Assembly: GCA_964579285.1 (NCBI GenBank)
Contig: CAZOHS010000001.1
Span: 13,068-70,971, forward strand
Source: an uncultured Rhodospirillaceae bacterium
GTDB lineage: Bacteria > Pseudomonadota > Alphaproteobacteria > MPNO01 > UBA830
DNA: 57,904 bases
Direction: 5' to 3'
The notes beneath the pieces were generated by a model that did not search any database, was not told where the DNA came from, and saw only the letters and a list, made by a program, of their open reading frames with translations. Within the stretch, counting starts at the first letter, position 1. Each line of letters opens with the position of its first letter. Of the stretch, positions 5,395 through 34,607 are shown in pieces. The position numbers and the translations under genes are program-made.

Positions 5395-5431
5395 ACCCTG
5401 CCTCGCTATCTATTTCTTGGTTACTGTCAAC

Positions 5432-6412: not shown

Positions 6413-6582
6413 ATAAATTCTCCCTATTTTGAAAGTCTGTATCAGCAGCACGACTTGCAGATCGAAAATAGAACATCTTTGTTTCACTTTCACAAGTGCG
6501 TGACTTTAAATCTTGTGCGATAGATGCTCGGGAGTTAAGAGAAAAACAGGAAACACAGTCCAATTTAGTAGAGGAGATAGAG

Positions 6583-11108: not shown

Positions 11109-11139
11109 TAAGTGTCTCCTATAGTTCTATAAATTGGTT

Positions 11140-18869: not shown

Positions 18870-18910
18870 GGATACGCTCCTTTTTCTCTATTCTTATATT
18901 ACTACAGGGA

Positions 18911-19549: not shown

Positions 19550-19677
19550 TATTTGACTTCCGCGATCGAACTCGTTTTTGTTTATGTGAACTGAGACCCC
19601 AGATGCCAAGCCCTACCCGGGCAAATCAACCGAAATTCTCATATCGACAATAGCAACGTTTCTTCCCTTAAAAAGCA

Positions 19678-19725: not shown

Positions 19726-20460
19726 ATGGAAAAATCGGTTATTGTAACTGGGGCAGCGAGTGGTATCGGTTTAGCTTGTTCCAAACTTCTCCTGGAGGAT
19801 GGTTGCCGTGTTCTCGCATTCGATCCGCAGGAAGATAAGTTACGGGCGGAACTGCCCGAATGCGACGAAGTATCATTTTTCAAGGGTGACGTCTCGAATC
19901 CCGAGAATTGCGAAAACTCTGTCGCGCAGGCTGTGAAAACTTTCGGTAAACTTGACGCCTTGATGCACTGGGGCGCCGCACATTCCTCCAAGCGTTGGGA
20001 CGAACTGGACGCAGTTGAGTGCAACTTCATTATGTCCGTGAATGTGACTGGCTCATTCCTGATTGCCCAAGCAGCCGCAAAGAATATGATGGCAAACGCT
20101 GGGGGTGCCATAGTCTTAACAACATCTACTTCGGTGCTTTTTGGAGTGACTGGAGGAAATGGGCAGGGTGGTCCCGCCTACGTAAGTTCAAAGGGTGCCA
20201 TTATTGCTTTGAATAGATCTCTGGCCCGTGCCCTGGCACCGCGCGTGCGCTGCAACGCGGTGAGCCCCGGTCTCGCCGAAACAGCGATGATAGAAGGTTA
20301 TACCGCGGCTCAGCGTGAGGTGATGGCACAACGATTTCCGATGGGGCGTTTTGGGCAGCCCGAAGAAATTGCTCACGCGGGTATATTTTTGATCTCAGAT
20401 AAAGCAAGCTTCATTACAGGGGAGGTCATACACGCGAACGGTGGGTCAAACTTTAACTGA
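19726..20460 (+). CDS. Short-chain dehydrogenase/reductase (SDR)
   Basis: It has VIVTGAASGIGLA and the catalytic YVSSK. It shares a Gly-rich insertion with 15801..16556. Confidence 0.9.
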   Translation: MEKSVIVTGAASGIGLACSKLLLEDGCRVLAFDPQEDKLRAELPECDEVSFFKGDVSNPENCENSVAQAVKTFGKLDALMHWGAAHSSKRWDELDAVECNFIMSVNVTGSFLIAQAAAKNMMANAGGAIVLTTSTSVLFGVTGGNGQGGPAYVSSKGAIIALNRSLARALAPRVRCNAVSPGLAETAMIEGYTAAQREVMAQRFPMGRFGQPEEIAHAGIFLISDKASFITGEVIHANGGSNFN

Positions 20461-20508
20461 CTTACTAAAGGCCTTATCATTATAGTGATAGCAACGGGAA
20501 GGATGAAA

Positions 20509-21219
20509 ATGCCTCATAACTTCGAAATGCCAAAAAAATATATTGACCAGATGGTAAACCGTATGGGGAGAGAGCACTCCCAAGAGACTTTCGATACCGA
20601 AAAAACCGCGCTGGTCGTCGTCGACATGCAAAACTACTTTATGGACGAAAGCCAACAAGCTGGCTGCCCCGTAGGCCAAACAATAGTCGATAACGTCAAT
20701 CGCATTGCGGACACCGTCAGGCGGACGGGAGGTATCGTGATATGGATACAAAACCTAGCGCCAGCGGACACCGCAATCACGTGGCGGACAGCCCACGAAC
20801 GATATACTGCGGATAAAGCAGAAATAAGGGTTGAATCCATGACGCGCGGTGAATGGCCCTTTGAACTTTGGCCCACACTCGACGTAAAGGACGACGACTT
20901 TCGTGTTACAAAGCGCCGCTACAGTGCTTTTATCCAGGGCTCGTCTGATATTGAACTCATATTAAAAGACAACAACATTGAAAATATTCTTGTCTGTGGT
21001 GTTGCTACCAATGTTTGCTGCGAAAGCACCGCGCGGGACGCGATGATGTTAAATTACCGTGCATTGATGGTCTCCGACGGGTGTGCCACCGCGTCAGACG
21101 AGGAACACGGGAACTCCCTAGTCGCTTTTTACACACACTTTGGCGACGTTCAAAATACGGATGAACTGTGTGCTCGTTTAGAGGCATCGGATCGGCGCAA
21201 TGAGCCAATCGATGCTTAA
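20509..21219 (+). CDS. Isochorismatase-family cysteine hydrolase (RutB/CSHase-like amidohydrolase)
   Basis: It has ALVVVDMQNYF and the nucleophile block VCGVATNVCCESTARDA. I chose the ATG at 20509 because GGAAGG lies 6 nt upstream. The ORF track starts at the GTG at 20485. Confidence 0.85.
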   Translation: MPHNFEMPKKYIDQMVNRMGREHSQETFDTEKTALVVVDMQNYFMDESQQAGCPVGQTIVDNVNRIADTVRRTGGIVIWIQNLAPADTAITWRTAHERYTADKAEIRVESMTRGEWPFELWPTLDVKDDDFRVTKRRYSAFIQGSSDIELILKDNNIENILVCGVATNVCCESTARDAMMLNYRALMVSDGCATASDEEHGNSLVAFYTHFGDVQNTDELCARLEASDRRNEPIDA

Positions 21220-21241: not shown

Positions 21242-22432
21242 ATGGCTGGACCTATGGCACCCGAACCACCCCAGGGCAAAACGGTAATAAAAAATATCGG
21301 ACAAGTGCTTTCAGGAGCACTTGAAAATCCAATAATCAGCGCCGATACATTGGTCGCGGTGGACGGCAAGATTGCTGCCTTTGGCAAAGAAGCAGACATC
21401 GACACCGAGGCTGCCGACCTGACGATCGACGCCCACGGGGTAACACTTTGCCCCGGTTTAATCGACAGCCATGTGCATCCAGTATTTGGTGATTGGACCC
21501 CCCGACAAAGTCAGCTTAATTGGATTGACTCATCCATGCACGGGGGCGTTACAACAATGATTTCCGCGGGTGAAGTACATCTTCCCGGGCGCCCGAAGGA
21601 TCCTAAGGGGGTCGTAGCCCTCGGTATCACCGCACAACGTTGCTTTTCTGCTTTTCCAGCCGGAGGGGTAAAAGTACGAGCTGGGGCCCCAATTCTCGAA
21701 AAAGGTATGGTCGAGGAAGATTTTAAGGAACTCAGCGAAGCTGGAGTTAAACTGCTTGGAGAAATAGGCTTAGGCGGGGTCAAGGCTGGCGCCGAAGCCA
21801 AACAAATGGTTGACTGGGCGCGGAAATACGGAATTCAATCAACCATCCATACTGGCGGCCCCTCTATTCCTGGCTCAGGATTAATTGACAAGGACGTAGT
21901 TCTTGAAGCTGGGGCTGATATAATTGGTCACATAAACGGCGGACACACGTCCCTGCCGCTGGATCAAATCCGATGCCTTTGTGAAGAGTGTCAGGCGGGA
22001 ATTGAAATTGTGCACAACGGTAACGAAAAGGCTGCCTTGTTCGCCCTCCGAACCGCGTTCGAGCTGAAACAATCTGAGCGCGTTATTTTGGGTACGGACG
22101 GACCGGCAGGCTCTGGTGTTCAGCCCCTTGGGATTTTGCGGATGGTCTCAATGTTATCCTCACTCGGCGATGTCCCTGCTGAAATTGCTTTTTGTTTCGC
22201 AACTGGAAATACGGCGCGTATGCGCGAGTTAGATTGTGGCCTAATCGAAGCTGGAAGGACGGCAGATTTCGTATTTCTTGACAAAGCTCAACATAGCGCA
22301 GGTAAAGACCTACTGGAGAGCGTGCAAATGGGGGATATACCGGGTGTCGGAATGGTCATGATCGACGGCCGCGTCTCATCGGGCAGAAGCCGCAACACAC
22401 CCCCGGCAGAAACAATTCCTGAGGTTATTTGA
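21242..22432 (+). CDS. Amidohydrolase superfamily metallohydrolase, enamidase-like
   Basis: 396 aa with the metal motif GLIDSHVHPVFGDW, further His-containing strands (STIHTGG, IIGHINGGH) and a late LGTDGP. Size and context (near a Mo hydroxylase and an Hnr-like gene) resemble enamidase. The family-level call is firm; the subfamily call is an inference. Confidence 0.65.
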   Translation: MAGPMAPEPPQGKTVIKNIGQVLSGALENPIISADTLVAVDGKIAAFGKEADIDTEAADLTIDAHGVTLCPGLIDSHVHPVFGDWTPRQSQLNWIDSSMHGGVTTMISAGEVHLPGRPKDPKGVVALGITAQRCFSAFPAGGVKVRAGAPILEKGMVEEDFKELSEAGVKLLGEIGLGGVKAGAEAKQMVDWARKYGIQSTIHTGGPSIPGSGLIDKDVVLEAGADIIGHINGGHTSLPLDQIRCLCEECQAGIEIVHNGNEKAALFALRTAFELKQSERVILGTDGPAGSGVQPLGILRMVSMLSSLGDVPAEIAFCFATGNTARMRELDCGLIEAGRTADFVFLDKAQHSAGKDLLESVQMGDIPGVGMVMIDGRVSSGRSRNTPPAETIPEVI

Positions 22433-22441
22433 CACCTTACT

Positions 22442-23026
22442 TTATCGGAGCCCGTCTTCACCTTCCATTTGTTCAGTCGTCAAGCCCCCTACCCTTGGAA
22501 AGGGTCGCCCTGAATCGGTAACGGAAATGGCAACGAGGATTTCGTTTGCTCTAGGGGCATCTGCAAGCCGAACCTCCATTCCATCGAAATGGCTGCGTAC
22601 GTATGCCGCATCTTTATGACCGAGCGGTACATCGATGGGCGTGCCCGGTCCTCCAAGCTTTTTTACTGAGGGCACGAGGGCCGCCCCTTTTTCCACTTCT
22701 TTGCGTAATGGGGCTCCGAGTTTTGGATGTAGTATCGCGGCGGCGTGTTCCCATTCACCGTTTTCCCCAACAATTGCGGCTTTACCATAACTCTCGGCGT
22801 CTTCAGGATTGATGCCAAGTGCTTCAACACACATTTTTCCAAGAATTTCTCCTAGTTCTGCGCCAATATCCATCAGATCGCTCAAATCTTCCTCATATTT
22901 CCCCGCGAATGGGTTTTCAATTACAGCCAGAGCGGCCGCCTTACGTGTGGGCGGATCAACTGACTTCCCTATATCTTTATGGGTTTCTTCAACAATGACT
23001 GATGTCTTTCGAATATTTGCCAGCAT
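22442..23026 (-). CDS. DUF1185 / 'amino acid synthesis family' protein (function unknown)
   Basis: 194 aa with ...GKAAIVGENGEWEHAAAILHP ... VPLGHKDAAYVRSHFDGMEV ... GEDGLR*. I recognise this pattern as the PF06684-type family (recalled, not searched). It is a paralog of 25542..26171. Confidence 0.65.
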   Translation of the reverse strand: MLANIRKTSVIVEETHKDIGKSVDPPTRKAAALAVIENPFAGKYEEDLSDLMDIGAELGEILGKMCVEALGINPEDAESYGKAAIVGENGEWEHAAAILHPKLGAPLRKEVEKGAALVPSVKKLGGPGTPIDVPLGHKDAAYVRSHFDGMEVRLADAPRANEILVAISVTDSGRPFPRVGGLTTEQMEGEDGLR

Positions 23027-23195
23027 AGCGAACTCCCTAGGAAATTTTTAGTACCGTTGTTATTTTGGAAGTTCATCTCAGCAAAAATAATTGTCAAGCC
23101 AGAAGATCAAGCTTCCCTTTTTTCAATAGATGGATTGCCAGCAGCTTAAGCTCTGCTAAATTGCCCAAAACCCATCCCAATAGAGAACTCAGCAT

Positions 23196-25538
23196 ATGTC
23201 CGACGAGACCACACTCGAACCACTAAAATTTGGCATCGGCCAACCCGTACTGCGTGCAGAAGATCCAAAACTTCTCAGAGGGGACGGAATATACACAGAC
23301 GATTACGATGCCACAGGACAAGCATACGCTCGATTTCTCCGTTCACCGCTACCCCACGGCAAGATCCAATCCCTTGATGTTTCAGGTGCGATCGCAGCTG
23401 CCGGCGTCATAGCCGTCTATTCAGGAGAAGATCTACGCAATGCCGGAGTAAAAGATATACCATGCCCTATCGCTGTTAAAAGCCGAGACGGCTCTGACGC
23501 AGTTGTGCCACCCCGACCAGCCCTTGCGGTTGGGGAAGTCAAACACGTTGGCGACCCGGTTGCAGTCGTCATCGCGGAAACCGCATCCCAAGCTCAGGAT
23601 GCTATCGAGCGCATAAAGCTTGAGATAGACCCCTTACCCTACGTCACAGATCCGGTTATCGCAGAGGCCGTTGGCGCGCCACAAGTCTGGGAAATGGCCC
23701 CACGGAATACATGTCTTGATTTTCATTGGGGTGATGACCAGAAGGTTGAACAAGCCTTCGAGAAAGCGTCTCACATTACTAAAATTAAACTAACAAATAC
23801 CCGCATGATCGTTAGTGCCATGGAACCCAGGGCGACAGTTGCAGAATACGATCAAGACCTGAAAAAATTTACACTGCACGTCGGCACACAAGGTGTCGCC
23901 GGATACCGCAATGCTATGGCTAATATGTTGGGCACCGAGCCGGAGAAAATGCGAATAGTGTCGCAAGAGGTAGGAGGTTCGTTCGGTATGAAGGGTAGTG
24001 CTTTTAACGAAGCCGTTGTCGCCCTATTTGCTTCGAGACAACTCCGGCGGGCGGTTAAGTGGACAGCTGACAGGACAGAGAGTTTTCTGTCCGATCATCA
24101 CGGTCGCGCTATGACCTTCGAGTTAACCCTCGGCCTCGACACAAATGCCAACTTCCTTGCTTTACGCGTAGACGGCGTAGGCGATATGGGAGCCTATCTG
24201 ACTGCCATGGGGCCATGGCCCGCAACAATGGTCACCAGTCGCAATATAATCAGTGTTTATAAGACGCCGGCGATCTCATTCAATACAAAGTGTATCTTTA
24301 CCAATACTGTACCCACAGGCCCCTACAGGGGGGCAGGCAGACCAGAGTCGAAGTTCTTTCTAGAAAGGTTGATAGATAAGGCAGCAGAGGAAATAGGTAT
24401 GGATAGGATTGAGATCCGAAGGCGCAATATGATTAGCCCGGAAATGCTTCCTCATTCAACACCCGTAGACCTCACATACGATTCGGGAGAATTTGAAACT
24501 GTCCTGGATAAGTGTTTGAAACGTGCTGATTACGATGGCTATCTCAACCGAAAAAAATCCGCCGAGGACCATGGAAAATTGCTTGGTTTAGGTATTGCCC
24601 CCTACCTCGAAACTACAGCAGGGCCCGGCACCGAACTTGCCGACATTCGTTTTGAGGCAGATGGCACTGTAACACTAACGTCTGGTACCAAAGATTTTGG
24701 GATGGGACATGCCACGCCCTTCGCTCAGGTTTTGTCGTCCGAACTAGGCATACCTTTTGAGAGTATCAACCTCGTTCAACACGATTCAGACGAAATGAGC
24801 CCCGGTGCCGGCGGGTCTGGGGGATCTCGCTCAATGATCGCAGCTAGTGGTGCGATCATTGAATGCGCTGCACTAATTGTAGACAAAGGTCTCAACGCGG
24901 CCAGTCACATCCTCGAAGCAGCAATCGAAGATATTACGTTTTCGGATGGAATTTTCACCGTAACCGGCACTGATAGATCTATCGGTATAATAGCCTTGGA
25001 AGAAAAACTGCGGGGCTTATCTGACCTAGAAGAGGGTGTCCCCAAAACATTATCAAATAAAGTTAACCACAATACTGCGCCAATAAGCTTCCCCAACGGT
25101 TGCCATGTGGCGGAGGTAGAAATTGATCCTGATACCGGAAACGTCACAATTGAGCGTTACACCGTAGTTGATGATTTTGGGGTTGTGGTAAACCCCCTCA
25201 TCGTCGAAGGGCAAGTCCATGGAGGCATTGCTCAAGGTATTGGCCAGGTTATATGTGAAGACACTATTTATGATGAAAGCGGCCAACTTCTCACCGCCAC
25301 GTACCTTGATTATCAATTGCCTCGTGCCGAAGATATCACACACATTGACTTCACAACCCACCCGGTACCGTGCACGACGAACCCACTCGGTGTAAAGGGT
25401 TGCGGAGAAGCGGGGAACGGCGGATCTTACCCAGTAATATATAATGCAATAATGGACGCGATTAATGGCAACAACGGCGTGGAATTAGGTATTCCCGCTA
25501 CTCCCCAAAGAATTTGGCAGGCCATTCACTCTGTATAG
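23196..25538 (+). CDS. Xanthine dehydrogenase/CoxL-family molybdopterin-binding large subunit. It is not a true CO dehydrogenase and has no adjacent FeS or FAD partner genes.
   Basis: 780 aa with VGGSFGMKG, the active-site loop TGPYRGAGRPE (form-II-like, not VAYRCSFR) and ...GVKGCGEAG.... Confidence 0.9.
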   Translation: MSDETTLEPLKFGIGQPVLRAEDPKLLRGDGIYTDDYDATGQAYARFLRSPLPHGKIQSLDVSGAIAAAGVIAVYSGEDLRNAGVKDIPCPIAVKSRDGSDAVVPPRPALAVGEVKHVGDPVAVVIAETASQAQDAIERIKLEIDPLPYVTDPVIAEAVGAPQVWEMAPRNTCLDFHWGDDQKVEQAFEKASHITKIKLTNTRMIVSAMEPRATVAEYDQDLKKFTLHVGTQGVAGYRNAMANMLGTEPEKMRIVSQEVGGSFGMKGSAFNEAVVALFASRQLRRAVKWTADRTESFLSDHHGRAMTFELTLGLDTNANFLALRVDGVGDMGAYLTAMGPWPATMVTSRNIISVYKTPAISFNTKCIFTNTVPTGPYRGAGRPESKFFLERLIDKAAEEIGMDRIEIRRRNMISPEMLPHSTPVDLTYDSGEFETVLDKCLKRADYDGYLNRKKSAEDHGKLLGLGIAPYLETTAGPGTELADIRFEADGTVTLTSGTKDFGMGHATPFAQVLSSELGIPFESINLVQHDSDEMSPGAGGSGGSRSMIAASGAIIECAALIVDKGLNAASHILEAAIEDITFSDGIFTVTGTDRSIGIIALEEKLRGLSDLEEGVPKTLSNKVNHNTAPISFPNGCHVAEVEIDPDTGNVTIERYTVVDDFGVVVNPLIVEGQVHGGIAQGIGQVICEDTIYDESGQLLTATYLDYQLPRAEDITHIDFTTHPVPCTTNPLGVKGCGEAGNGGSYPVIYNAIMDAINGNNGVELGIPATPQRIWQAIHSV

Positions 25539-25541
25539 TGA

Positions 25542-26171
25542 CTACCGCAGTCCATCTTCGCCTATTACGTCTTTATCCTGTAATCCTGCCGAACGTGCAT
25601 ATATTCGGGGTGCAGTCGACATTGATTGCACCCATACAATCTCGTTTGCGCGCGGTGCATCATTAATAGCACACACGACTGTGTCAAAGTGCGATCGAAC
25701 ATACGCGGCATTCGCATGACCAATTGGAACATCGATGGAACATCCAGGGCCGCCAACTTTTTTTGTTGAAGGAACGATCGCCGCGGATTTCTCCATGAGT
25801 TGGCGCATTCCGTAACCACCGGGTTCATGCCACAACGCAGCATGCTCGAGTTCCCCGTTCTCCCCCACTATTGCGGCCTTACCGTACGCCACAACATTAT
25901 CCGCACCTCCCAATACGCCCATCAGCCTCTTAGCCATCTCAATACCCATAGGTTTCAGTTGCTCCATTAAGGGCAGAATGTCCTCGACGTAACGACCAGC
26001 GTAGGGGTTGTGCGTCACAGCAGCGACATATCCTTTTAACTGAGGCGTCTCCGCAACTGGACCAAATTCGTGGAGCACCTCCTCAACGCAGAGGACGAAT
26101 TTGCGGACCTTAACGAGATCGCCAAAATCCCCGCCGGGCGCTGTTTCTAAAGCTACTCTGCCATCGTCCAT
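25542..26171 (-). CDS. DUF1185 / 'amino acid synthesis family' protein (function unknown)
   Basis: 209 aa with ...GKAAIVGENGELEHAALWHEP ... VPIGHANAAYVRSHFDTVV ... GEDGLR*. It aligns by eye along its whole length with 22442..23026. Confidence 0.65.
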   Translation of the reverse strand: MDDGRVALETAPGGDFGDLVKVRKFVLCVEEVLHEFGPVAETPQLKGYVAAVTHNPYAGRYVEDILPLMEQLKPMGIEMAKRLMGVLGGADNVVAYGKAAIVGENGELEHAALWHEPGGYGMRQLMEKSAAIVPSTKKVGGPGCSIDVPIGHANAAYVRSHFDTVVCAINDAPRANEIVWVQSMSTAPRIYARSAGLQDKDVIGEDGLR

Positions 26172-26218
26172 TTTTCTTTCCCCTAATATTGACCGATACT
26201 AAATAAGTAGGTTTTTAA

Positions 26219-26230
26219 AATTTCGAAATT
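26219..26230. promoter_or_regulatory. Perfect 12-bp palindrome AATTTCGAAATT upstream of the second DUF1185 gene
   Basis: Read directly. It lies 48-59 bp upstream of the start at 26171, inside a very AT-rich 231-bp spacer. Chance occurrence in AT-rich DNA is possible. Confidence 0.15.
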
Positions 26231-26402
26231 ACTATCTTTTTTATCATATAATCTGACCATTTTATCAAACAGGCGTCGCGTATATGTTTCTATTACTAAA
26301 ACTACGCCCACGCACCCCGGATAAAATACCTCAATAATTCATAGGCATTAATATTAAAGTTTTTATTTAATTTCAAGTTGTTAAAATAAGTATATAAGAA
26401 AG

Positions 26403-27266
26403 TTATTTAAGATTTTTAATAGGCGCCGTTGCGCCAGGAACATCTCCCACATAGCGAAAATTCCCTTTTAGGAGTATCGCTGCGGCGACTATCAACCCAT
26501 CCCGCAACATTCCACTCGCAGCCGTATGACCAGCATCAAGTGCTGCATCTACAGTAGTCTTATCAAGATTGCCCACAGAAACAGTTACCAACCGGTTGCC
26601 CAGATCGGTTTGATCATCCATCTCCGACGCTGGCCTTCGCTCAATCGATTGATGATCGGCGTTCACGGCATTAGCAATTAATGTTGCTGCGACATCAGCT
26701 ATTGCTGCCGAGACCGCAACTACAGTAACTGCATCGGCGATCCCAAAAGACCAACTACGACCCCGCCAACCACTGGTCGCGACACCCCGTATCGGTGAGG
26801 CATGATCTATTTCCGCAGTCGCATCAATGCCCGGTTTGTCAAGTTCACCCACAATTCCAAGTCTAAGTTTTTCACCGGGCGCGAGGTAAATAGCAATATC
26901 TCCGGAATTGTTTATGTATGCTCTACGTAAGTCACGCCCACGTGTTAATGCTTGAGCCATTTCGTCGGCCACAGATCCGGCCACCGCGGCCATAGGCGTT
27001 ACAAAGGAGCCCCTGTGCGGCCAAACCGCATCCATCATCCTGACTGCCACTGGACCTTTCGGCACCCAGCGCGGTTCTTTAACAACTTGTTGGATTTTTG
27101 GGAGTTCCTCAACGAGTTGAGAAAGAATTGTCGAAAAGCGATCGCGAACCTGACCGTATGCCTCGGCGACCTCTTCATCGCTACCGAATGCCTCAATCAC
27201 AAGATCAATGGGACCGTGTTGAAGGTGAAGCCTACGGCCGTCGGCCAACAGCGAGGACTGAAGCAC
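26403..27266 (-). CDS. UPF0280-family protein (ApbE-like superfamily; function unknown)
   Basis: 287 aa with a GTG start after GGGGGG. It begins MLQSSLLADGRRLHLQHGPIDLVIEAFG... . The family assignment is from memory of UPF0280 N-termini and of its usual position next to Hnr-like genes. It is the last gene of the Mo-hydroxylase operon. Confidence 0.5.
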   Translation of the reverse strand: MLQSSLLADGRRLHLQHGPIDLVIEAFGSDEEVAEAYGQVRDRFSTILSQLVEELPKIQQVVKEPRWVPKGPVAVRMMDAVWPHRGSFVTPMAAVAGSVADEMAQALTRGRDLRRAYINNSGDIAIYLAPGEKLRLGIVGELDKPGIDATAEIDHASPIRGVATSGWRGRSWSFGIADAVTVVAVSAAIADVAATLIANAVNADHQSIERRPASEMDDQTDLGNRLVTVSVGNLDKTTVDAALDAGHTAASGMLRDGLIVAAAILLKGNFRYVGDVPGATAPIKNLK

Positions 27267-27290
27267 TTTAGCCCCCCAAGAAACCGCGCA

Positions 27291-28781
27291 TTACGAACTC
27301 GCAGGCGCCCTGCGTTCGGACAACGGCCATGGGTTTGTTCCCTCCCAAGGCATGGGTTCTACTCCGTGGAGACCGCCCTCCCTGAGGACTTCGTCAAGCC
27401 CTCGAACGTGATCTTGATAGCCTCCGAGCGCAATAAATTCCTCCTGTCGCATCGTAAATTCTATTGGGGCTACTAACGCGGGTGTCGGCACATAACCGAA
27501 AGAGTTGTCAGGTGTTCGCAATATATCAGCCATCAACGTGATCCCGCCACCTGGCCAAACATATACTGGCGCACCCCCGCACGTAACTCGAGTGCGCAAT
27601 TCCCGCACCGACCGTGTCAAAAGTACCGGGTTTACAGTCACTCCGGCGCGCAGAGAACCTCCCGCACCTCCCATGAACATTACTGTAGACAAAGCGGGTT
27701 CGCAATTTTCCCCAATACGGTCGACCGAAACCGCCAACTCAGCCGGCATTTCGGATGCAACTGGCGTCAAGTCATCGTCCAAAATAAAGTATTCCTGATC
27801 TTCGCCTGTCGTACTTACCATCAACAAGCGAAGACCCGGCCAAGCGACCTCGGGATTAATACTTTCAACAATCGATAGAGGATCCGTTATGTCGGTACCG
27901 CCCCACCCACTTCCAGGCTCAGCAACCTGAAAGTAGCGCCCCGGCGTAGACCTTCGGCCCCGAACACGGATACCTGCCGGAGGCATGTCTAGGAATTTTC
28001 CAGACTGATGTTCTGTCAGCACACCCGTAATGTGGTCATCGACAACGATTACCTCATCGGCGTGGCCAAACCACTGGGGTGCAAAGATGCCAATAGTTGC
28101 CGACCCGCAGCCCACACGCATCCGTTCTTCTTGTTCGTCCTCTATAATCGGTGGCTTTCCTGCTTGGACGGTCAGGGCAGCTCCCCCATCAATCGTCATC
28201 TCAACAGCTTCTTTGTTGCAGAGCGAGAGCATTGCCTGGCAAGTGGCATTACCTTCTTTTTTAGTGCCCCCCGTCAAATGACGGACCCCGCCCAAAGCCA
28301 GCATCTGCGAGCCATACTCGGCTGTCGTAACATGTCCAATCTGTTCGCCGCCAACACGAACAGCAGCAGGTTCCGGACCAATATAGCGATCAGTGTCGAT
28401 TTTGACTTTTACACCACAGTAACTAAACACCCCCTCCGAAACGACTGTAACCATGTCGACACCCTCATGCTCGGACGAAACAATAAATGGTGCTGGCTTG
28501 TAATCTGGGTATGTCGTTGTCGCGCCAATACCCGTAACAAAAGTAGGTGATTGAAAATTTAGCGAACCATCCCACTCCGACTGACCCTGAATAAATGGGA
28601 CGAGGTCACCACTATCATCGGCTATTTTTTGGGTCACTATCAAGGGGTCGGTGCGAGTAAGTTCCCCATCAAAATTTCCGTACCGATCACAGGCACCTGT
28701 CTTACCTTCCCTAATTCTGCACAAAACCGGGCAAGCGTCACACGTGATCACGCCATCTTTAACGACTTTCTGCTCACTCAC
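27291..28781 (-). CDS. 6-hydroxynicotinate reductase-like Fe-S (flavo)protein
   Basis: 496 aa. The N-terminal Cys cluster is CDACPVLCRIREGKTGACDRYGN, with further conserved Cys (YCGV, TCQAMLSLC, VGCGS, TCGG). The GTG start overlaps the upstream stop (GTGA) and follows AGGAGGGG. The subfamily assignment is recalled, not searched. Confidence 0.55.
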   Translation of the reverse strand: MSEQKVVKDGVITCDACPVLCRIREGKTGACDRYGNFDGELTRTDPLIVTQKIADDSGDLVPFIQGQSEWDGSLNFQSPTFVTGIGATTTYPDYKPAPFIVSSEHEGVDMVTVVSEGVFSYCGVKVKIDTDRYIGPEPAAVRVGGEQIGHVTTAEYGSQMLALGGVRHLTGGTKKEGNATCQAMLSLCNKEAVEMTIDGGAALTVQAGKPPIIEDEQEERMRVGCGSATIGIFAPQWFGHADEVIVVDDHITGVLTEHQSGKFLDMPPAGIRVRGRRSTPGRYFQVAEPGSGWGGTDITDPLSIVESINPEVAWPGLRLLMVSTTGEDQEYFILDDDLTPVASEMPAELAVSVDRIGENCEPALSTVMFMGGAGGSLRAGVTVNPVLLTRSVRELRTRVTCGGAPVYVWPGGGITLMADILRTPDNSFGYVPTPALVAPIEFTMRQEEFIALGGYQDHVRGLDEVLREGGLHGVEPMPWEGTNPWPLSERRAPASS

Positions 28782-31528
28782 GACCCCCCTCCTTGGGCGG
28801 CGATGATGGCGGCCCGCACACGGGCGGGCGTCGCCGGCGCCTGGGTTATTTCAGCACCTGTCGCATGATATATCGCGCCAAAGATCGCAGGCGGAGTGGG
28901 TATTAACGCTGGTTCACCAATACCCTTTGCACCGTATGGCCCAGTCGGTTCCGGGTCCTCAATCAAGTAGACGTCTATTGGTGGAATGTCCCCGAAGGTG
29001 GGAATGAGATAATCGTGAAGGTTTTCTGTTCGACCAGGAACATATTCCTCCATCAACGCTAGCCCAATGCCTTGGGCGACGCCCCCGTGTATTTGACCCT
29101 CAACTTGCATCGGGTTTATCGCGGCGCCTAAATCATGTGCGGCCCACACATGCAGTACTTTAACGACCCCAAGTTCTGTATCGACCTCTACTTTTGCTAC
29201 CTGAGCACCGAAAGCGTATGTGCCGTAGGGGTTTCCCTGCCCCATTTCATCCAGTGGTGTCGCGGGCGGGTCAAACACTCCCTCACCAACCAATACATTT
29301 CCATGCAACCTATCCGATTTAAGTTCAGACAAATCTATTACACGCTGGGTATCGGCATCTGTGACGGTCAAACAACCCGCGGCGAATTCAACTGATGCAC
29401 TGTCTCCAACGTTTGCAAGGCGCAAGATCTGTCGGCGCAGGTCAGCCCCAGCAAGCATCGCAGCTTTACCAGACACATAAGCCTGACGCGAGGCGGAACT
29501 CTTACCCGCATCAGCCGTAAGATCTGTGTCACCCCAAACCAAACCCACTTGGTCCATTCTTATCCCGAGGGCATCAGCGGCAACTTGAACCATAGTAGTA
29601 TTTGTCCCCTGCCCAATATCTTGAGCCCCTGAATAAAGTGTTACGGTTCCATCGGCTGCCAAACCGATATGCATAGTGGAAGGATTTGACATTGACGTGT
29701 TACCACAACCATACCACATACAACCCACCCCAACTCCGAGACGCTTCGTACCGTCCGTTGCAGAATTATATTGGTCGGCCTCCCGACGCGCGTGTTTCCA
29801 TGGATCACGCAGCGTTTCCAAACATTGATCCAAACCAGCAGAATATTTTAGTAATTGCCCTGTTGGCGTCTCGTGGCCTTTACGCATCGCGTTTTTTAAC
29901 CGAAATTCAAGTGGATCCATATCGACTCGTTCGGCCATTCGATCCATCAGATTATCATGGGCAATCGCCGCCTGGGGGATTCCAAATCCCCTAAAGGCTC
30001 CAGCGGGCGTACCGTTTGTAAAAACCGCTCGCGTTTTAGCTTCTACATTAGGTACTAAATAGGGCCCCGTCGCATGCACCGGCACACGGTCTTTTACCGT
30101 CAAACCCCACGAAACGTATGCGCCAGTATCAAAATCACCCGTCATCTCAAAAGCAACCAAATCTCCGTTATTAGTACAGCCGTATTTCGCGGTGATCCTA
30201 GAAGGGTGTCTCTTAGTGGAGGCCGACATCGACTCTATTCGGCTCCACGTCGCACGCACAGGCTGATCCAACACCCAGGCAGCTATTCCCAATAGAGGAT
30301 GGACACCCAAGTCCAACTTACCACCGAAGCCACCGCCACAGGCTGTTGGAATAATCCGTACCGCGTCGTTAGAGATACCCACAATTTGTGCAACAAGGTC
30401 GCGGTCCAAATATGGGGATTGGGTTGAAACTGTCATCTCAAGACGATCTCCAACCCGCCTTGCCCAACCCGCTTCAGGCTCTATGTAAGCGTGTTCCACA
30501 AAGCCCGTTGCAAAGGAGTTCTCTACAACCACGTCAGCAACATCAAACCCAGATCCGACGTCGCCCTTTTTTAGGTAACCATGGGCTAGAATATTCCCTG
30601 GGTGATCCGAATGGATCTGATGAGCGCCGTCCAACAGAGCCGCATCGAAACCATAAACGTCATCGCGTACTTTGTAGCTTATTGGCAAGTCTTCATCGCG
30701 GATACCATATACGGAAGCATAGTCCCCTACCAAAGCCAGCACCGTTTCACCCCGAAAACGTATTTCCCCATCAGCTATTGCCGGTTGATCGTTTACGTCG
30801 GGATAAACGCCATAGGCATTTCGGCCTGGCACGTCTCGCGCGGTAAGCACACGAACTAATCCCGGCCAATCATTATAAAGGGTGCCAAAGTCCCCCAGCT
30901 CGAAGGAAGCGTTGGCGTGAGGTGACCGAACCGCACGCACCCATAGTGCTTCACTCGGGGCGGTATCCGCGCCAAAATTCTCGGTCCCATTTACCTTCTG
31001 CACACCATCCGTTTTTAAGGCGCGTGCACCCATTGCCTCCCCAACATCAGGGTTAAGAAACCCAGCGGCTTGTGGAGATGCAATCTGTTGGACTGCATCG
31101 ATGATATTTCGATAACCAGTACATCGGCAAAGAACGCCCCCCAATGCATCAAGTATCTCTGTTTCGCTCGGAGTTTTGTTATGCGTTAATAAATCGGCCG
31201 CAGCCATTAACATTCCCGGTGTACATATACCGCATTGAGTTGCACCACACTCGTGGAAAGCCCGTTGAAGTTCCGACAACTGACTACTGCCTGAAGTTAG
31301 CCCCTCAACTGTAGTGACTTCGCACCCTTCAGCCTGGGCTAACGGCACCATACACGCGCATACCTGTTCGCCATCAAGCAAAACAGTGCAAGCTCCACAA
31401 TCACCGGCATCGCAGCCTACTTTGGTCCCCGTAACCCCCAGATCTTCGCGCAGCACCTGCGCCAAACGGGTTAAGGGTGCGGACATCGTAGAAACCGAAT
31501 TTCCGTTAAGGTTGAATGTTACTTGCAT
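28778..31528 (-). CDS. Xanthine-dehydrogenase-family hydroxylase with fused 2x[2Fe-2S] and molybdopterin-binding subunits
   Basis: The N-terminal [2Fe-2S] motifs are CDAGDCGACTV, CGICTPG and CRCTGY, followed by a roughly 750-aa a/b-hammerhead plus MoCo domain. I prefer the ATG at 31528 (MQVTFNLNGN...). The ORF track starts at the TTG at 31537. Confidence 0.9.
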   Translation of the reverse strand: MQVTFNLNGNSVSTMSAPLTRLAQVLREDLGVTGTKVGCDAGDCGACTVLLDGEQVCACMVPLAQAEGCEVTTVEGLTSGSSQLSELQRAFHECGATQCGICTPGMLMAAADLLTHNKTPSETEILDALGGVLCRCTGYRNIIDAVQQIASPQAAGFLNPDVGEAMGARALKTDGVQKVNGTENFGADTAPSEALWVRAVRSPHANASFELGDFGTLYNDWPGLVRVLTARDVPGRNAYGVYPDVNDQPAIADGEIRFRGETVLALVGDYASVYGIRDEDLPISYKVRDDVYGFDAALLDGAHQIHSDHPGNILAHGYLKKGDVGSGFDVADVVVENSFATGFVEHAYIEPEAGWARRVGDRLEMTVSTQSPYLDRDLVAQIVGISNDAVRIIPTACGGGFGGKLDLGVHPLLGIAAWVLDQPVRATWSRIESMSASTKRHPSRITAKYGCTNNGDLVAFEMTGDFDTGAYVSWGLTVKDRVPVHATGPYLVPNVEAKTRAVFTNGTPAGAFRGFGIPQAAIAHDNLMDRMAERVDMDPLEFRLKNAMRKGHETPTGQLLKYSAGLDQCLETLRDPWKHARREADQYNSATDGTKRLGVGVGCMWYGCGNTSMSNPSTMHIGLAADGTVTLYSGAQDIGQGTNTTMVQVAADALGIRMDQVGLVWGDTDLTADAGKSSASRQAYVSGKAAMLAGADLRRQILRLANVGDSASVEFAAGCLTVTDADTQRVIDLSELKSDRLHGNVLVGEGVFDPPATPLDEMGQGNPYGTYAFGAQVAKVEVDTELGVVKVLHVWAAHDLGAAINPMQVEGQIHGGVAQGIGLALMEEYVPGRTENLHDYLIPTFGDIPPIDVYLIEDPEPTGPYGAKGIGEPALIPTPPAIFGAIYHATGAEITQAPATPARVRAAIIAAQGGGS

Positions 31529-31533
31529 GACTA

Positions 31534-32367
31534 TCAAACGAGCTCCGTTATAGCGCGTCGGACGAGCGTCAATGAAACATCCCGTCGATACGCGGCTGTA
31601 CCTCTTACGTCATCTATCGGGCTCAAAGGTTTTAGATGATCAGAAACCACACTTGATGCGAGATTTGAATCAACCTTCCTACCCACGAGCAGACGTTCGG
31701 CATCTGTCAAACGGCACGCGACTTCGGAACAGGATCCCACTGAAAGTCGCAGCCGTTCAACTGTTCCATCATCGGATGTTTCTAGAACGGCAGAAACCAT
31801 CACGATTGAAATTACTAAGTACTTGCGCGCGCCCAGCTTAAGAAAAGTACTTTTTGCCCCATTTTTACAGGCTGGAATAGAAATGCCGAGAACCATTTCA
31901 TTGGGTTGCCGTTTAGTCTTTCGATTTCCAAGGATAAATTCTGAAACTGGTAATGTTCTCTCCCCAGAGGTCGACGCCAATATAATCGAAGCATCAAGGG
32001 CTAATAAGCCAGGGACCCCATCCGCCGCTGGCGAGGCATTACATATGTTCCCAACTATCGTCGCTGCGTTCTGTATTTGTACGCCGCCGACCTCTTTGGC
32101 GGCGAGCTTCATTCCTGTAAGCCAATCTGGCAGATCTGCTCTGATTAAATCGGACCAAGTGGATCTCGCGCCGATATATATATGATCTCCTCGGTCTTCA
32201 ATGACCCGCAAACCTTCAATAGCGGTAATATCAAGCACATCGTCATCTAGCGGTTTACCGACACGAGCCGGATAGAAATCGGTACCACCCGCGATGATTG
32301 TGGGCTCGCCAATTGACAGCGCTTCGAGCGCTTCATCGAGCTGCTTTGGGCGTAAAAAAGATGACAT
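31534..32367 (-). CDS. Molybdopterin dehydrogenase FAD-binding (medium, CoxM/XdhB-like) subunit
   Basis: 277 aa with TIIAGGTDFYP. It is the first gene of the operon. Its stop lies 5 nt before the ATG of the FeS/Mo subunit. Confidence 0.85.
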   Translation of the reverse strand: MSSFLRPKQLDEALEALSIGEPTIIAGGTDFYPARVGKPLDDDVLDITAIEGLRVIEDRGDHIYIGARSTWSDLIRADLPDWLTGMKLAAKEVGGVQIQNAATIVGNICNASPAADGVPGLLALDASIILASTSGERTLPVSEFILGNRKTKRQPNEMVLGISIPACKNGAKSTFLKLGARKYLVISIVMVSAVLETSDDGTVERLRLSVGSCSEVACRLTDAERLLVGRKVDSNLASSVVSDHLKPLSPIDDVRGTAAYRRDVSLTLVRRAITELV

Positions 32368-32737: not shown

Positions 32738-34603
32738 ATGGCCACAAATGCTGCCTCCTCTCTTAATGCGGAGCGCAAATCTCTAGACTCAGTTGTTATT
32801 CGATTTGCCGGCGATTCCGGCGACGGAATGCAGCTAACTGGAACCCAATTCACTCAATCCACCGCCCTGATGGGTAACGATCTCGCTACCTTTCCAGACT
32901 TTCCTGCAGAAATTCGTGCGCCCGCTGGCACAACTTTTGGGGTATCGGCCTTTCAAATAAACTTTGCGTCGTATGATATACAGACACCCGGGGACGATCC
33001 GGATGTGCTTGTGGCAATGAACCCGGCCGCTCTAAAAGTACACCTAAAGGATGTACCCAAGGGCGGTACGGTGATCCTCAACTCTGACGCATTTTCCGAG
33101 CGAAACGTAACCCGCGCGGGTTACGGTGAAAGCCCGCTTGAAGATGGTACATTGGACAACTATATCGTTATCGCGATTGAGATAAATAAGTTGACCAATG
33201 CCGCGGTCAAGGATTGTGGGGTTACTTCGAAGGAAGCAACTCGTTCGAAGAATTTCTGGGCACTCGGTCTGATGTGTTGGATGTATAACCGAGACCGCCA
33301 ACCAACGATAGACTGGGTGAACCAGCGTTTTGCAAAACTACCCAATATTGCAGCAGCAAATATAGCGGCTCTTAACGCGGGTCACGCGTACGGCGAGACG
33401 GTGGAATTACCATCAGGTGTGGAAGCCTACGTAGTACCGCGGGCAGATGTTAAACCGGGTACCTACAGGGCGGTCACCGGAACCGAAGCCGTAGCGTGGG
33501 GACTTGTTGCCGGCGCCAAGAAGGCGGGACTCAATATCTTTCTGGGCTCGTACCCAATAACCCCGGCGTCCGCTCTCCTTCACACCCTAACCAATCTAAA
33601 ACATTACGGTGTCACCACGTTTCAAGCAGAGGACGAAATCGCCGCCGTTTGCTCGGCCATAGGGGCCTCCTACGCAGGTTCGCTCGGTGTTACATCCTCC
33701 TCCGGACCAGGAATAGCTCTAAAAACAGAAGCTATCGGCCTGGCCCTTGTTACAGAATTACCGCTCATTGTTGTGAATGTGCAGCGTGGCGGTCCGTCGA
33801 CGGGCTTACCAACAAAAACGGAGCAATCCGATTTGTTTCAGGCAATGTATGGCCGCAACGCGGATACACCACTTCCTGTAATTGCTTCGCGAACGGCCGG
33901 CGACTGTTTCGAAACAGCGATAGAAGCAGTTCGTATTGCAACAAAATATATGACCCCGGTAATCTTCTTAACAGATGGGTTCCTCGCGAACTCGGCAGAA
34001 CCATGGGAAATACCTGACGCCGACGCTATTGCCGAATTTCCCGTTGAATTTCGCACTGATCCTGAGGGTTTTCATCCATTTCTTCGGGACGAGCAAACTC
34101 TTGCCCGAAACTGGGCAATCCCGGGCACGCCTGGATTAATGCATCGGATTGGTGGCATTGAAAAAGACTATGATAGTGGTCACATCTCATACGACAGCGA
34201 TAATCATCAGAGGATGACAAAAGTTCGTGCAGCTAAGATTGATGGTATCGCAAATGACATACCAGAACAAAAAGTTGAAGCTGGTGGAGACACCGGTAAG
34301 CTAGCAGTCGTGGGATGGGGGTCCACGTTTGGAGCAATAAATCAAGCTGTAGGTCGTTGTATTGAAGACGGTTTGAATGTTTCACACATACATATTCGCC
34401 ATATCTCACCATTCCCAAAAAATTTAGGTGACCTTCTTGGAGGATTTGAAAAGGTCATGGTACCAGAGATGAACAACGGGCAATTGGTCCACGTACTCCG
34501 AGACAAATATCTAGTTGATGCCGAAAGCATTACACAAATCACGGGCCAACCGTTTAAGGTCTCGACCCTTGAACGCGATATCCGCTCGCGGATAGAAGGA
34601 TAA
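32738..34603 (+). CDS. korA: 2-oxoglutarate (2-oxoacid):ferredoxin oxidoreductase alpha subunit
   Basis: 621 aa. The N-terminus VIRFAGDSGDGMQLTG is typical of two-subunit KorA. It has the fused gamma/alpha domain architecture. Confidence 0.85.
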   Translation: MATNAASSLNAERKSLDSVVIRFAGDSGDGMQLTGTQFTQSTALMGNDLATFPDFPAEIRAPAGTTFGVSAFQINFASYDIQTPGDDPDVLVAMNPAALKVHLKDVPKGGTVILNSDAFSERNVTRAGYGESPLEDGTLDNYIVIAIEINKLTNAAVKDCGVTSKEATRSKNFWALGLMCWMYNRDRQPTIDWVNQRFAKLPNIAAANIAALNAGHAYGETVELPSGVEAYVVPRADVKPGTYRAVTGTEAVAWGLVAGAKKAGLNIFLGSYPITPASALLHTLTNLKHYGVTTFQAEDEIAAVCSAIGASYAGSLGVTSSSGPGIALKTEAIGLALVTELPLIVVNVQRGGPSTGLPTKTEQSDLFQAMYGRNADTPLPVIASRTAGDCFETAIEAVRIATKYMTPVIFLTDGFLANSAEPWEIPDADAIAEFPVEFRTDPEGFHPFLRDEQTLARNWAIPGTPGLMHRIGGIEKDYDSGHISYDSDNHQRMTKVRAAKIDGIANDIPEQKVEAGGDTGKLAVVGWGSTFGAINQAVGRCIEDGLNVSHIHIRHISPFPKNLGDLLGGFEKVMVPEMNNGQLVHVLRDKYLVDAESITQITGQPFKVSTLERDIRSRIEG

Positions 34604-34607
34604 GCTT

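What the first reader, a model, noticed from the sequence alone, without database searches (positions are those of the whole stretch)
22442..26171. Two DUF1185 paralogs, each convergent with and nearly touching an enzyme gene, bracket an orphan Mo hydroxylase
ORFs 22442-23026 and 25542-26171 align by eye along their full length. They share GKAAIVGENGE(W/L)EHAA, VP(L/I)GH..AAYVRSHFD and DAPRANEI, and both end in GEDGLR.

Each lies tail-to-tail with a plus-strand enzyme gene. The gaps are 9 bp (after the enamidase-like gene) and 3 bp (after the CoxL-like gene). The family has no established function. The name 'amino acid synthesis family' is historical.

Two diverged copies inside an N-heterocycle catabolic island suggest a pathway-specific role, for example a hydrolase or isomerase acting on ring-opened intermediates, or a heteromeric pair.
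Basis: partly seen in the sequence, partly recalled or inferred. Interest (0 to 1): 0.6.

Follow-up and report, generated by a model that had tools for sequence, protein, structure and literature searches.

The report
Paired DUF1185 genes of nicotinate operon
The two small related genes are real members of an unsolved protein family (DUF1185) and are old, conserved parts of the bacterial gene cluster that breaks down nicotinate (vitamin B3): one always travels with the ring-opening enzyme, the other with the ring-reducing enzyme, and what they do chemically is still unproven.

Summary
Observation confirmed. ORFs 22442-23026 ("A") and 25542-26171 ("B") both match PF06684 over its full length (E 1.7e-73 and 8.7e-67) and are 47% identical. 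The 9-bp and 3-bp tail-to-tail gaps are exact.

The island is the proteobacterial reductive (THON) nicotinate cluster: FAD and FeS-MoCo hydroxylase, 6-hydroxynicotinate reductase (Hnr), UPF0280, B, and enamidase (PDB 2VUN, E 3.9e-108) with A.

A and B are two old orthologous groups.
- B follows Hnr-UPF0280 in about 35 fetched loci.
- A has the same distribution as enamidase. All 21 genomes with an enamidase orthologue have A, and only one further genome has A, in two samples of 301 genomes each.
- In other families B and A are adjacent. In 10 of 12 such cases the B stop and A start overlap as ATGA, which fits a heteromer.
- Only the window's own family has the CoxL-like gene between them.

Both paralogs keep all family-invariant residues.

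A third paralog in this genome sits next to an enamidase paralog. Another clade sits in tgn-like (trigonelline) operons.

Best guess: a cofactor-free helper or enzyme acting on the labile ring-opened product. This is unproven.

The scan has already reported this pair on other DNA. The name "amino acid synthesis" is a misnomer.

The parts
22442..23026 (-). A-type DUF1185/PF06684 gene (194 aa), the companion of enamidase
   Evidence: PF06684 E 1.7e-73. 146 of 192 residues identical to SPO0826, PDB 2QTP. Lies in the A clade of the tree. Has the same phyletic distribution as enamidase.
25542..26171 (-). B-type DUF1185/PF06684 gene (209 aa, with a 15-17 aa N-terminal extension conserved across the order); the gene that follows hnr-UPF0280
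   Evidence: PF06684 E 8.7e-67. Lies in the B clade, SH-aLRT 99. Orthologues at 68-94% identity over residues 1-209 in 35 of 41 relatives.
21242..22432 (+). Enamidase orthologue (THON ring-opening amidohydrolase), convergent with A with a 9-bp gap
   Evidence: PDB 2VUN 'enamidase', E 3.9e-108, residues 12-393. Pfam Amidohydro_1.
23196..25538 (+). CoxL-like Mo-hydroxylase large subunit (form-II-like GPYRGAGR motif) with no FeS or FAD gene beside it; inserted between B and A in this family only
   Evidence: Pfam Ald_Xan_dh_C, MoCoBD_1 and MoCoBD_2. Below every NCBIfam cut-off; best match is glyceraldehyde dehydrogenase alpha. Synteny.
26403..27266 (-). UPF0280 family gene between hnr and B
   Evidence: NCBIfam NF003322, E 1e-104, above the cut-off. 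Follows hnr in 39 of the 40 Hnr loci tabulated.
27291..28781 (-). 6-hydroxynicotinate reductase (Hnr) homologue
   Evidence: No Pfam or PDB match. Homologues at 72-88% identity are named '6-hydroxynicotinate reductase' by NCBI and JGI.
28778..31537 (-). Fused 2x[2Fe-2S] and MoCo subunit of the presumed nicotinate hydroxylase
   Evidence: Pfam Fer2, Fer2_2, MoCoBD_1 and MoCoBD_2.
31534..32367 (-). FAD subunit of the presumed nicotinate hydroxylase
   Evidence: Pfam FAD_binding_5 and CO_deh_flav_C.
19726..21219 (+). SDR and isochorismatase-family hydrolase genes, upstream of and co-directional with enamidase
   Evidence: Pfam. Conserved next to enamidase in own-family loci.
32738..35642 (+). Two-subunit 2-oxoacid:ferredoxin oxidoreductase, divergent from the hydroxylase/hnr operon; a possible source of low-potential electrons
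   Evidence: Pfam POR, POR_N and TPP_enzyme_C. Conserved beside the operon in relatives within the order.

Best explanation
Shown:
- The two ORFs are intact members of two ancient orthologous groups of PF06684. Both groups belong to the alphaproteobacterial reductive (THON) nicotinate catabolic cluster.
- B is the last gene of the operon FAD subunit - FeS/MoCo subunit - hnr - UPF0280 - B.
- A is the constant companion of enamidase.

Inferred from synteny:
- The ancestral layout is hnr > UPF0280 > B > A > followed by a convergent enamidase gene, with the B stop and A start overlapping as ATGA.
- In the window's own family a CoxL-like gene was inserted between B and A.

Inferred, not tested:
- A and B assemble into a mixed oligomer. 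The family forms hexamers built as trimers of dimers.
- The oligomer acts without a cofactor at the ring-opening stage. Its likely substrate is the labile product of lactam hydrolysis, 2-(aminomethylene)glutarate / 2-formylglutarate.
- It would speed enamine/imine hydrolysis, or decarboxylation to glutarate semialdehyde, or both. It would then pass the aldehyde to its dehydrogenase. This parallels homologue TgnF, which assists succinate-semialdehyde dehydrogenase in trigonelline catabolism.
For: Family membership and paralogy.

Identity of the island:
- Enamidase matches PDB 2VUN at E 3.9e-108.
- Hnr homologues are so named by NCBI.
- The Mo hydroxylase has FAD and FeS-MoCo subunits, and UPF0280 is present.
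[quoted passage not shown] Locus L107 (hnr-UPF0280-A-Liv-type ABC-MarR, then a convergent enamidase) fits that description.

Two clades with distinct partners (tree):
- In the B clade, 34 of 38 sequences lie right after UPF0280.
- In the A clade, sequences lie next to enamidase or are the second gene of the tandem.

Class-level sample of 301 genomes:
- Hnr in 44, PF06684 in 54, both in 38. In about 26 genomes a PF06684 gene starts about 0.9 kb after hnr.
- Enamidase orthologues in 15, A-type in 16, and 15 of 15 overlap.

Phylum-level sample of 301 genomes: the same 7 genomes besides the window's own (6 of them not in the class sample) carry both.

Five good-quality Hnr+ genomes without PF06684 also lack enamidase.

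Co-duplicated partnership: a third PF06684 type sits beside an enamidase paralog in the window's own genome (contig C7) and in 3 other genomes.

Translational coupling: 10 of 12 tandem junctions overlap as ATGA.

Both paralogs keep every family-invariant residue, including the Glu/His/Arg cluster described for BB2672 (PMC2954203).

Family-wide theme: another clade lies in an ABC - DUF1185 - alpha/beta hydrolase - LLM - ALDH operon resembling tgn. TgnF is reported to stimulate SSADH (PMC7913881).
Against: - No experiment or structure of a complex was available. Heteromer formation rests on gene order alone.
- A and B are unlinked in one family of the order (f2).
- Many genomes have only B (for example G079, G083, G144, G217, G256, G310) or only A (G113; G169 and G322 of one genus). 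Each can therefore work without the other.
- Enamidase of E. barkeri is reported to do both hydrolytic steps itself (my recollection, not checked), so an extra enamine hydrolase is not obviously needed.
- Foldseek found no RidA, chorismate-mutase or decarboxylase relative. Only the two DUF1185 crystal structures matched. The model itself was mediocre, with pLDDT 65.
- The TgnF paper could not be read, so the analogy rests on a secondary citation.
Confidence: 0.5

Rival explanations
1. A and B are two separate helpers, each working as a homo-oligomer. B is an accessory or stabilising factor of Hnr, acting together with UPF0280. A is an accessory of enamidase. They do not form a mixed complex, and their adjacency merely reflects membership of one operon.
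For: - Linkage is partner-specific: B follows hnr-UPF0280 and A lies with enamidase.
- B-only and A-only genomes exist.
- The two genes are unlinked in family f2: L025-L030, where A stays beside enamidase in L028 and B stays beside UPF0280.
- B also occurs in enamidase-less clusters, which carry HyuA/HyuB instead.
Against: - 10 of 12 tandem pairs from distant families overlap as ATGA.
- Both proteins keep the same interface salt-bridge residues, so mixed dimers are sterically plausible.
- Five good-quality genomes have hnr-UPF0280 but no PF06684 gene, so Hnr does not strictly need B.
Confidence: 0.3
2. The proteins are non-catalytic ligand-binding or regulatory proteins. They would sense or buffer a pathway intermediate and modulate a partner enzyme allosterically.
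For: - TgnF is described only as 'stimulating' a dehydrogenase.
- No cofactor site or known catalytic motif is present, and no enzyme fold relative was found.
- The structural paper proposes pH- or salt-controlled oligomerisation.
Against: About 30 invariant charged or polar residues (Arg, Lys, Glu, His, Asp, Ser) are kept in all clades. This looks more like an active site than a binding pocket. Co-duplication with an amidohydrolase suggests stoichiometric chemistry.
Confidence: 0.12
3. Each DUF1185 protein is a dedicated helper of the Mo hydroxylase it touches. The pair would serve the 'orphan' CoxL-like enzyme that it brackets.
For: - The local geometry in this window.
- The CoxL-like gene also lies beside enamidase in L020 and L072.
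Against: - The CoxL-like gene lies between the pair only in the window's own family. It is missing from most clusters of other families.
- The genome has 45 Mo large-subunit matches but only 4 PF06684 genes.
Confidence: 0.04
4. The proteins work in amino-acid biosynthesis or branched-chain amino-acid metabolism, as the family name says.
For: The only basis is the historical inference from neighbouring 'BCAA' ABC transporter genes (PMC2954203).
Against: Those Liv-type ABC genes are the transporter of the nicotinate cluster itself (L107 and other loci; PMC3511419). No amino-acid biosynthesis gene lies near any of the copies examined.
Confidence: 0.02

Closest known systems
SPO0826 (PDB 2QTP, Ruegeria pomeroyi) and BB2672 (PDB 3BYQ, Bordetella bronchiseptica), the first DUF1185/PF06684 structures (PMC2954203)
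   Same: Same family. A is 76% identical to SPO0826 and falls in the same clade. BB2672 groups on the B side of the tree. The conserved Glu90/Glu92/His93/His98/His144/Arg172/Arg176 of BB2672 are kept in both A and B.
   Different: Those proteins were solved without any known function and were linked to amino-acid metabolism. Here the context is nicotinate catabolism. His174 of BB2672 is not conserved in A or in the window's own B (Phe176 and Tyr191). B carries a 15-17 aa N-terminal extension.
TgnF of the Acinetobacter baylyi ADP1 trigonelline cluster (Perchat et al. 2018, as cited in PMC7913881) and HcdD of Pseudomonas mandelii
   Same: Same Pfam family, and also in a catabolic cluster for an N-heterocycle (TgnF). 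TgnF acts after hydrolytic release of the amine, where a semialdehyde acid is formed. A tgn-like operon (DUF1185 - alpha/beta hydrolase - LLM - ALDH) was seen in locus L093.
   Different: A and B belong to different clades from the LLM-linked one. Their neighbours are Hnr/UPF0280 and enamidase, not an ALDH. The stimulation of a dehydrogenase was not testable here, and no such effect was found for HcdD.
Proteobacterial nicotinate degradation cluster (Azorhizobium caulinodans AZC_2790-2804, Bradyrhizobium blr3818-3830; PMC3511419) and the E. barkeri nicotinate fermentation upper pathway
   Same: [quoted passage not shown] Locus L107 reproduces that layout.
   Different: This window has both DUF1185 types, split by a CoxL-like gene. 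It has a TRAP DctQM pair in place of the Liv-type ABC importer, and a 2-oxoacid:ferredoxin oxidoreductase next door. As far as I recall the E. barkeri cluster has no DUF1185 gene; this was not checked.

Membership tests
Pfam PF06684 (AA_synth / DUF1185) | Full-length match to the family HMM above the gathering score | tested here: met
   A scores 246.3 bits over profile positions 1-175 of 175. B scores 224.4 bits over positions 1-173 of 175. The cut-off is 27.
Pfam PF06684 (AA_synth / DUF1185) | Conserved Glu-x-Glu-His, His, Arg-Ser-His and Arg-x3-Arg residues of the dimer interface and cavity (BB2672 numbering E90, E92, H93, H98, H144, R172, R176) | tested here: met
   All are invariant in 30 A-type and 38 B-type sequences. 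H174 is not conserved (residues as named in PMC2954203).
Pfam PF06684 (AA_synth / DUF1185) | Bacillus-chorismate-mutase-like fold; hexamer built as a trimer of dimers | tested here: inconclusive
   The AF2 model of B (pLDDT 65) superposes on 3BYQ and 2QTP: TM 0.75-0.86, E 5e-20 to 4e-15. The oligomeric state is not testable with these tools.
TgnF-type helper of a semialdehyde dehydrogenase | Encoded beside an aldehyde dehydrogenase, an alpha/beta hydrolase and an LLM-type oxygenase | tested here: not met
   No PF00171 gene lies in the island. That context belongs to a different PF06684 clade.
TgnF-type helper of a semialdehyde dehydrogenase | Stimulates aldehyde oxidation in vitro | not testable with these tools
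   Needs purified proteins.
Reductive (THON) nicotinate catabolic cluster | Hnr and enamidase genes together with a Mo-dependent hydroxylase | tested here: met
Reductive (THON) nicotinate catabolic cluster | Growth on nicotinate, or conversion of nicotinate, by the organism | not testable with these tools
   The genome is an uncultured marine alphaproteobacterial MAG.
RidA/YjgF enamine-imine deaminases (considered as a mechanistic analogue) | Detectable structural or sequence relationship to RidA | tested here: not met
   No RidA or chorismate mutase chain appears among the Foldseek matches. Beyond the DUF1185 structures nothing has E < 0.04. No PDB sequence match beyond 2QTP and 3BYQ.

The most novel reading that the evidence does not exclude
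A and B form a mixed hexamer that docks onto enamidase through A and onto Hnr through B. This complex would be the missing enzyme of the aerobic (Azorhizobium-type) nicotinate pathway. It would convert the enamine / 2-formylglutarate released on ring opening into glutarate semialdehyde plus CO2. The mechanism could run through the invariant Lys of the YGK motif acting as a Schiff-base catalyst. PF06684 as a whole would then be a new class of cofactor-free beta-formyl-acid decarboxylase / enamine deaminase that serves N-heterocycle ring-cleavage pathways, including tgn-like operons.
Probability: 0.25. Interest if true: 0.6.

Novelty: new member of a known kind. Interest (0 to 1): 0.4.

Why it matters
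PF06684 is a widespread family with a solved structure and a misleading name ('amino acid synthesis'). Its function has been open since 2007.

The partner-specific pattern found here narrows where to look. A goes with enamidase. B goes with Hnr-UPF0280. A third type goes with an enamidase paralog. Another clade lies in tgn-like operons. All of this points to the step just after C-N ring opening in pyridine-carboxylate catabolism.

That step, decarboxylation or processing of 2-formylglutarate, has no assigned gene in the aerobic nicotinate pathway as far as I know. The result also corrects annotation: these are nicotinate-catabolism genes, not amino-acid synthesis genes.

The cluster is common in marine and soil Alphaproteobacteria. 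Hnr was found in 44 of 301 sampled genomes.

Tried and rejected
1. Fold comparison to find an enzyme analogue (RidA, chorismate mutase, decarboxylase). The AF2 model of B was only moderate (pLDDT 65). Foldseek against the PDB returned only the two DUF1185 structures, so there is no mechanistic lead.
2. NCBIfam has no model for either protein.
3. The primary papers on TgnF (Perchat 2018), the E. barkeri cluster (Alhapel 2006) and the Azorhizobium pathway (Kitts 1992) are not held. Statements about them rest on secondary citations or my memory and are marked as such.
4. The homarine paper (PMC13236597) was checked for a DUF1185 role of HomE. Nothing is stated and no supplements are held.
5. The promoter/terminator scan of 22000-27500 found no more sites than shuffled sequence. 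Nothing can be said about transcription units or antisense overlap at the 3-bp and 9-bp junctions.
7. The idea that the pair serves the CoxL-like enzyme was rejected on synteny and copy numbers.
8. The idea that one paralog is a degenerate pseudo-enzyme was rejected, because both keep all invariant residues.
9. A heteromer prediction was not attempted. The structure tool takes single native chains only.
Full report
**Observation**

The ORFs at 22442-23026 (minus strand, 194 aa, called A here) and 25542-26171 (minus strand, 209 aa, called B here) are present as described.
- Both match Pfam PF06684 (AA_synth, formerly DUF1185) over the whole model, with E 1.7e-73 and 8.7e-67.
- They are 47% identical over 193 residues.
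- The stop-to-stop gaps to the plus-strand genes are exactly 9 bp (enamidase-like gene) and 3 bp (CoxL-like gene).
- Both genes have plausible ribosome-binding sites.
- NCBIfam has no model for either protein.

**What the island is**

- The plus-strand gene ending at 22432 is a true enamidase homologue. It matches PDB 2VUN 'enamidase' at E 3.9e-108 over residues 12-393.
- On the other side of B lie UPF0280 (NF003322, E 1e-104) and a 496-aa protein. That protein has no Pfam or PDB match, but its homologues at 72-88% identity are named 6-hydroxynicotinate reductase by NCBI and JGI.
- Next come a fused [2Fe-2S]-MoCo subunit and an FAD subunit.
- A two-subunit 2-oxoacid:ferredoxin oxidoreductase is transcribed divergently.
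- Upstream of enamidase are an SDR and an isochorismatase-family hydrolase. Next to those is a TRAP DctQM pair.

This is the reductive route of nicotinate catabolism: nicotinate, then 6-hydroxynicotinate, then 1,4,5,6-tetrahydro-6-oxonicotinate (THON), then ring opening.

Shettigar et al. (PMC3511419) describe the proteobacterial version of this cluster. [quoted passage not shown] Locus L107 comes from an 8-Mb alphaproteobacterial genome. It reads hnr - UPF0280 - A-type DUF1185 - Liv-type ABC transporter - MarR, then a convergent enamidase gene, which fits that description.

The genome is an 87%-complete, 3.05-Mb MAG. Its closest named relatives are uncultured marine Alphaproteobacteria or 'Rhodospirillaceae' MAGs.

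**Conservation in relatives**

B orthologues (68-94% identity, covering residues 1-209) were found in 35 of 41 relatives. A second copy lies 3-7 kb away in nearly all genomes of the window's own family.

tblastn synteny shows three arrangements:
- Own family: FAD - FeS/MoCo - hnr - UPF0280 - B, then the CoxL-like gene on the opposite strand, then A, then a convergent enamidase - isochorismatase - SDR block.
- Two other families of the order (f3 and f4): hnr - UPF0280 - B - A run co-directionally, and the CoxL-like gene lies elsewhere.
- A further family (f2): the genes are unlinked. B stays with UPF0280 and hnr, and A stays with enamidase (L028).

**Two orthologous groups with different partners**

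A maximum-likelihood tree of 81 PF06684 sequences, later extended to 92, separates three main groups:
- A B clade (38 sequences, SH-aLRT 99). 34 of these lie immediately after UPF0280.
- An A clade (30 sequences). These lie next to enamidase or are the second gene of the tandem.
- Other clades.

SPO0826 (PDB 2QTP) is A-type, with 146 of 192 residues identical to A. BB2672 (PDB 3BYQ) groups on the B side.

In a class-level sample of 301 genomes:
- Hnr was found in 44, PF06684 in 54 and both in 38.
- In about 26 genomes a PF06684 gene starts about 0.9 kb downstream of hnr, which is the space taken by UPF0280.
- Enamidase orthologues (at least 69% identity) occur in 15 genomes and A-type proteins (at least 62% identity) in 16. 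All 15 enamidase genomes have A.
- The sixteenth A-type genome (G027) has a divergent A and only a 42% enamidase-like gene.

In a phylum-level sample of 301 genomes, the same 7 genomes besides the window's own carry both enamidase and A-type. Six of them are not in the class sample.

Five good-quality Hnr+ genomes without any PF06684 gene also lack enamidase.

These genomes are related to one another, so the counts are not independent. Even so, the carriers span more than ten families.

Where enamidase is missing from the cluster, B is often followed by HyuA/HyuB (hydantoinase/oxoprolinase A and B) genes. Within the loci fetched, HyuAB and enamidase never co-occur. An ATP-dependent lactamase may therefore replace enamidase there. 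This last point is inference.

**Evidence for a pair**

In 12 tandem B-A cases from distant families, 10 have the B stop and A start overlapping as ATGA. The codons of the conserved C-terminal Gly-Glu-Asp-Gly (GGAGAGGATGG) lie where a Shine-Dalgarno sequence for A would be. This kind of translational coupling is typical of proteins made in fixed ratio.

The family is known to form hexamers that are trimers of dimers (PMC2954203).

Both paralogs keep all family-invariant residues. In A numbering these are R6, K7, E13, N38, P39, G42, Y80, G81, K82, G87, G90, E91, E93, H94, H100, G104, R108, S120, K123, D132, P134, H137, R144, S145, H146, F147, D156, P158, E162, R174 and R178. Neither paralog is a degenerate copy.

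Clade-specific differences include:
- A one-residue insertion after the Glu-His motif in A.
- Leu99 and Leu103 in A against Trp114 and Gly118 in B.
- Strict His34-Glu35 in B, which corresponds to the Arg7-Glu19 interface salt bridge of BB2672. That position is variable in A.

Against an obligatory heteromer, many genomes carry only B or only A, and the genes are unlinked in family f2.

**Family-wide context**

The window's genome has four PF06684 genes.
- The copy on contig C7 is immediately upstream of an enamidase paralog (40% identical to the window's enamidase). It lies in a cluster with two Rieske oxygenase alpha subunits and an LLM.
- The same C7-type DUF1185 plus enamidase-like pair recurs in three other genomes and forms its own clade with SH-aLRT 97. 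The DUF1185-amidohydrolase partnership has therefore survived a duplication of both partners.
- The copy on contig C15 lies beside a UbiD-like decarboxylase, a cupin and a TAXI-TRAP transporter.
- Another clade is linked to LLM genes. In L093 the operon is ABC transporter - DUF1185 - alpha/beta hydrolase (overlapping) - LLM - aldehyde dehydrogenase. That resembles the trigonelline tgn cluster.

TgnF, a PF06684 protein in the tgn cluster, is reported to stimulate succinate-semialdehyde dehydrogenase (PMC7913881).

In all these settings the DUF1185 gene sits at the enzyme that cuts the C-N bond of an opened or reduced N-heterocycle.

**Mechanism**

Shown: pathway membership, the partner-specific linkage, intact conserved residues and translational coupling.

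Inferred: A and B act, probably as a mixed oligomer, on the unstable product of ring opening.
- From my own knowledge, the Azorhizobium pathway (Kitts et al. 1992) proceeds from 2-formylglutarate by decarboxylation to glutarate semialdehyde and then glutarate. No gene is assigned to that decarboxylation as far as I know.
- 2-Formylglutarate is a beta-formyl acid. The many invariant Arg/Lys residues would suit a dicarboxylate substrate, and an invariant Lys (in the YGK motif) could act through a Schiff base.

This is a hypothesis only. Foldseek gave no enzyme analogue, and the TgnF primary paper could not be read.

**The CoxL-like gene**

The CoxL-like gene carries a GPYRGAGR motif, which I recall as the signature of form-II CoxL-like proteins. 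It is below every NCBIfam cut-off.

It is 'orphan' locally, but this 3-Mb MAG has 45 PF02738 matches and only 20 Fer2_2 matches. Orphan large subunits are therefore the rule in this genome.

It lies between A and B only in this family. It is not part of the conserved unit.

**The family name**

The 'amino-acid' link proposed in 2010 came from neighbouring 'BCAA' ABC transporter genes. Liv-type ABC transporter genes of this kind are part of the nicotinate cluster.

**Earlier notes of this scan**

I looked these up after reaching my own reading. The same gene pair has already been reported on other DNA several times, with the same general conclusion.

**Verdict**

This is a real, conserved, pathway-specific pair from a known family of unknown function. 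The bracketing of the Mo enzyme is incidental.

Noticed in passing
whole genome G000 (e.g. C9:33317-34024, C1:80122-80868, which lies beyond the window's end): This 3.05-Mb MAG has 45 matches to the Mo-hydroxylase large-subunit domain PF02738 but only 20 to the [2Fe-2S] small-subunit domain PF01799. The CoxL-like family is very large here, and many large subunits lack their own small subunit.
   Followed up: partly
G000 contig C7:2684-8453 (outside the window): A second ring-cleavage-type cluster. A PF06684 gene (6626-7195, minus strand) lies directly upstream of an enamidase paralog (5409-6611, 40% identical to the window's enamidase). Two Rieske oxygenase alpha genes follow, and an LLM is transcribed divergently. 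The same DUF1185 plus enamidase-like pair occurs in L110, L112 and L113.
   Followed up: partly
G000 contig C15:7253-12791 (outside the window): The fourth PF06684 gene (10700-11284, minus strand) lies between a cupin and a UbiD-family decarboxylase gene, beside a TAXI-type TRAP transporter. This is a further, different catabolic context for the family.
   Followed up: no
loci L069, L070, L074, L082, L083, L086, L087, L088, L023: Hnr clusters without enamidase often carry HyuA/HyuB (hydantoinase/oxoprolinase) genes right after the B-type DUF1185. In the 40 Hnr loci examined, HyuAB and enamidase never occurred together. This suggests two alternative ways of opening the THON lactam.
   Followed up: partly
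B-A junctions in L020, L021, L022, L034, L068, L071, L073, L079, L081 and others: The codons of the conserved C-terminal Gly-Glu-Asp-Gly of B (GGAGAGGATGG) lie 6-10 nt before the overlapping ATGA start of A. The protein motif may therefore double as the ribosome-binding site of the next gene.
   Followed up: no
window 17595-19609: The island has a TRAP DctQM pair with no adjacent DctP. The rhizobial-type clusters have a Liv-type ABC importer at the corresponding place. The uptake system of the cluster has been exchanged.
   Followed up: no
L023 and L024 (genomes G027 and G034): These genomes keep a B-A tandem but have no enamidase orthologue (G027 has only a 42% paralog elsewhere). Their A-type sequences sit on long branches. 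This could mean relaxed or changed constraint after loss of the partner.
   Followed up: no
window 25542-26171, residues 1-17 of B: B carries an N-terminal extension of 15-17 residues (MDDGR...GDFG). It is conserved as protein across the order but absent from B-type proteins of other families and from A.
   Followed up: no
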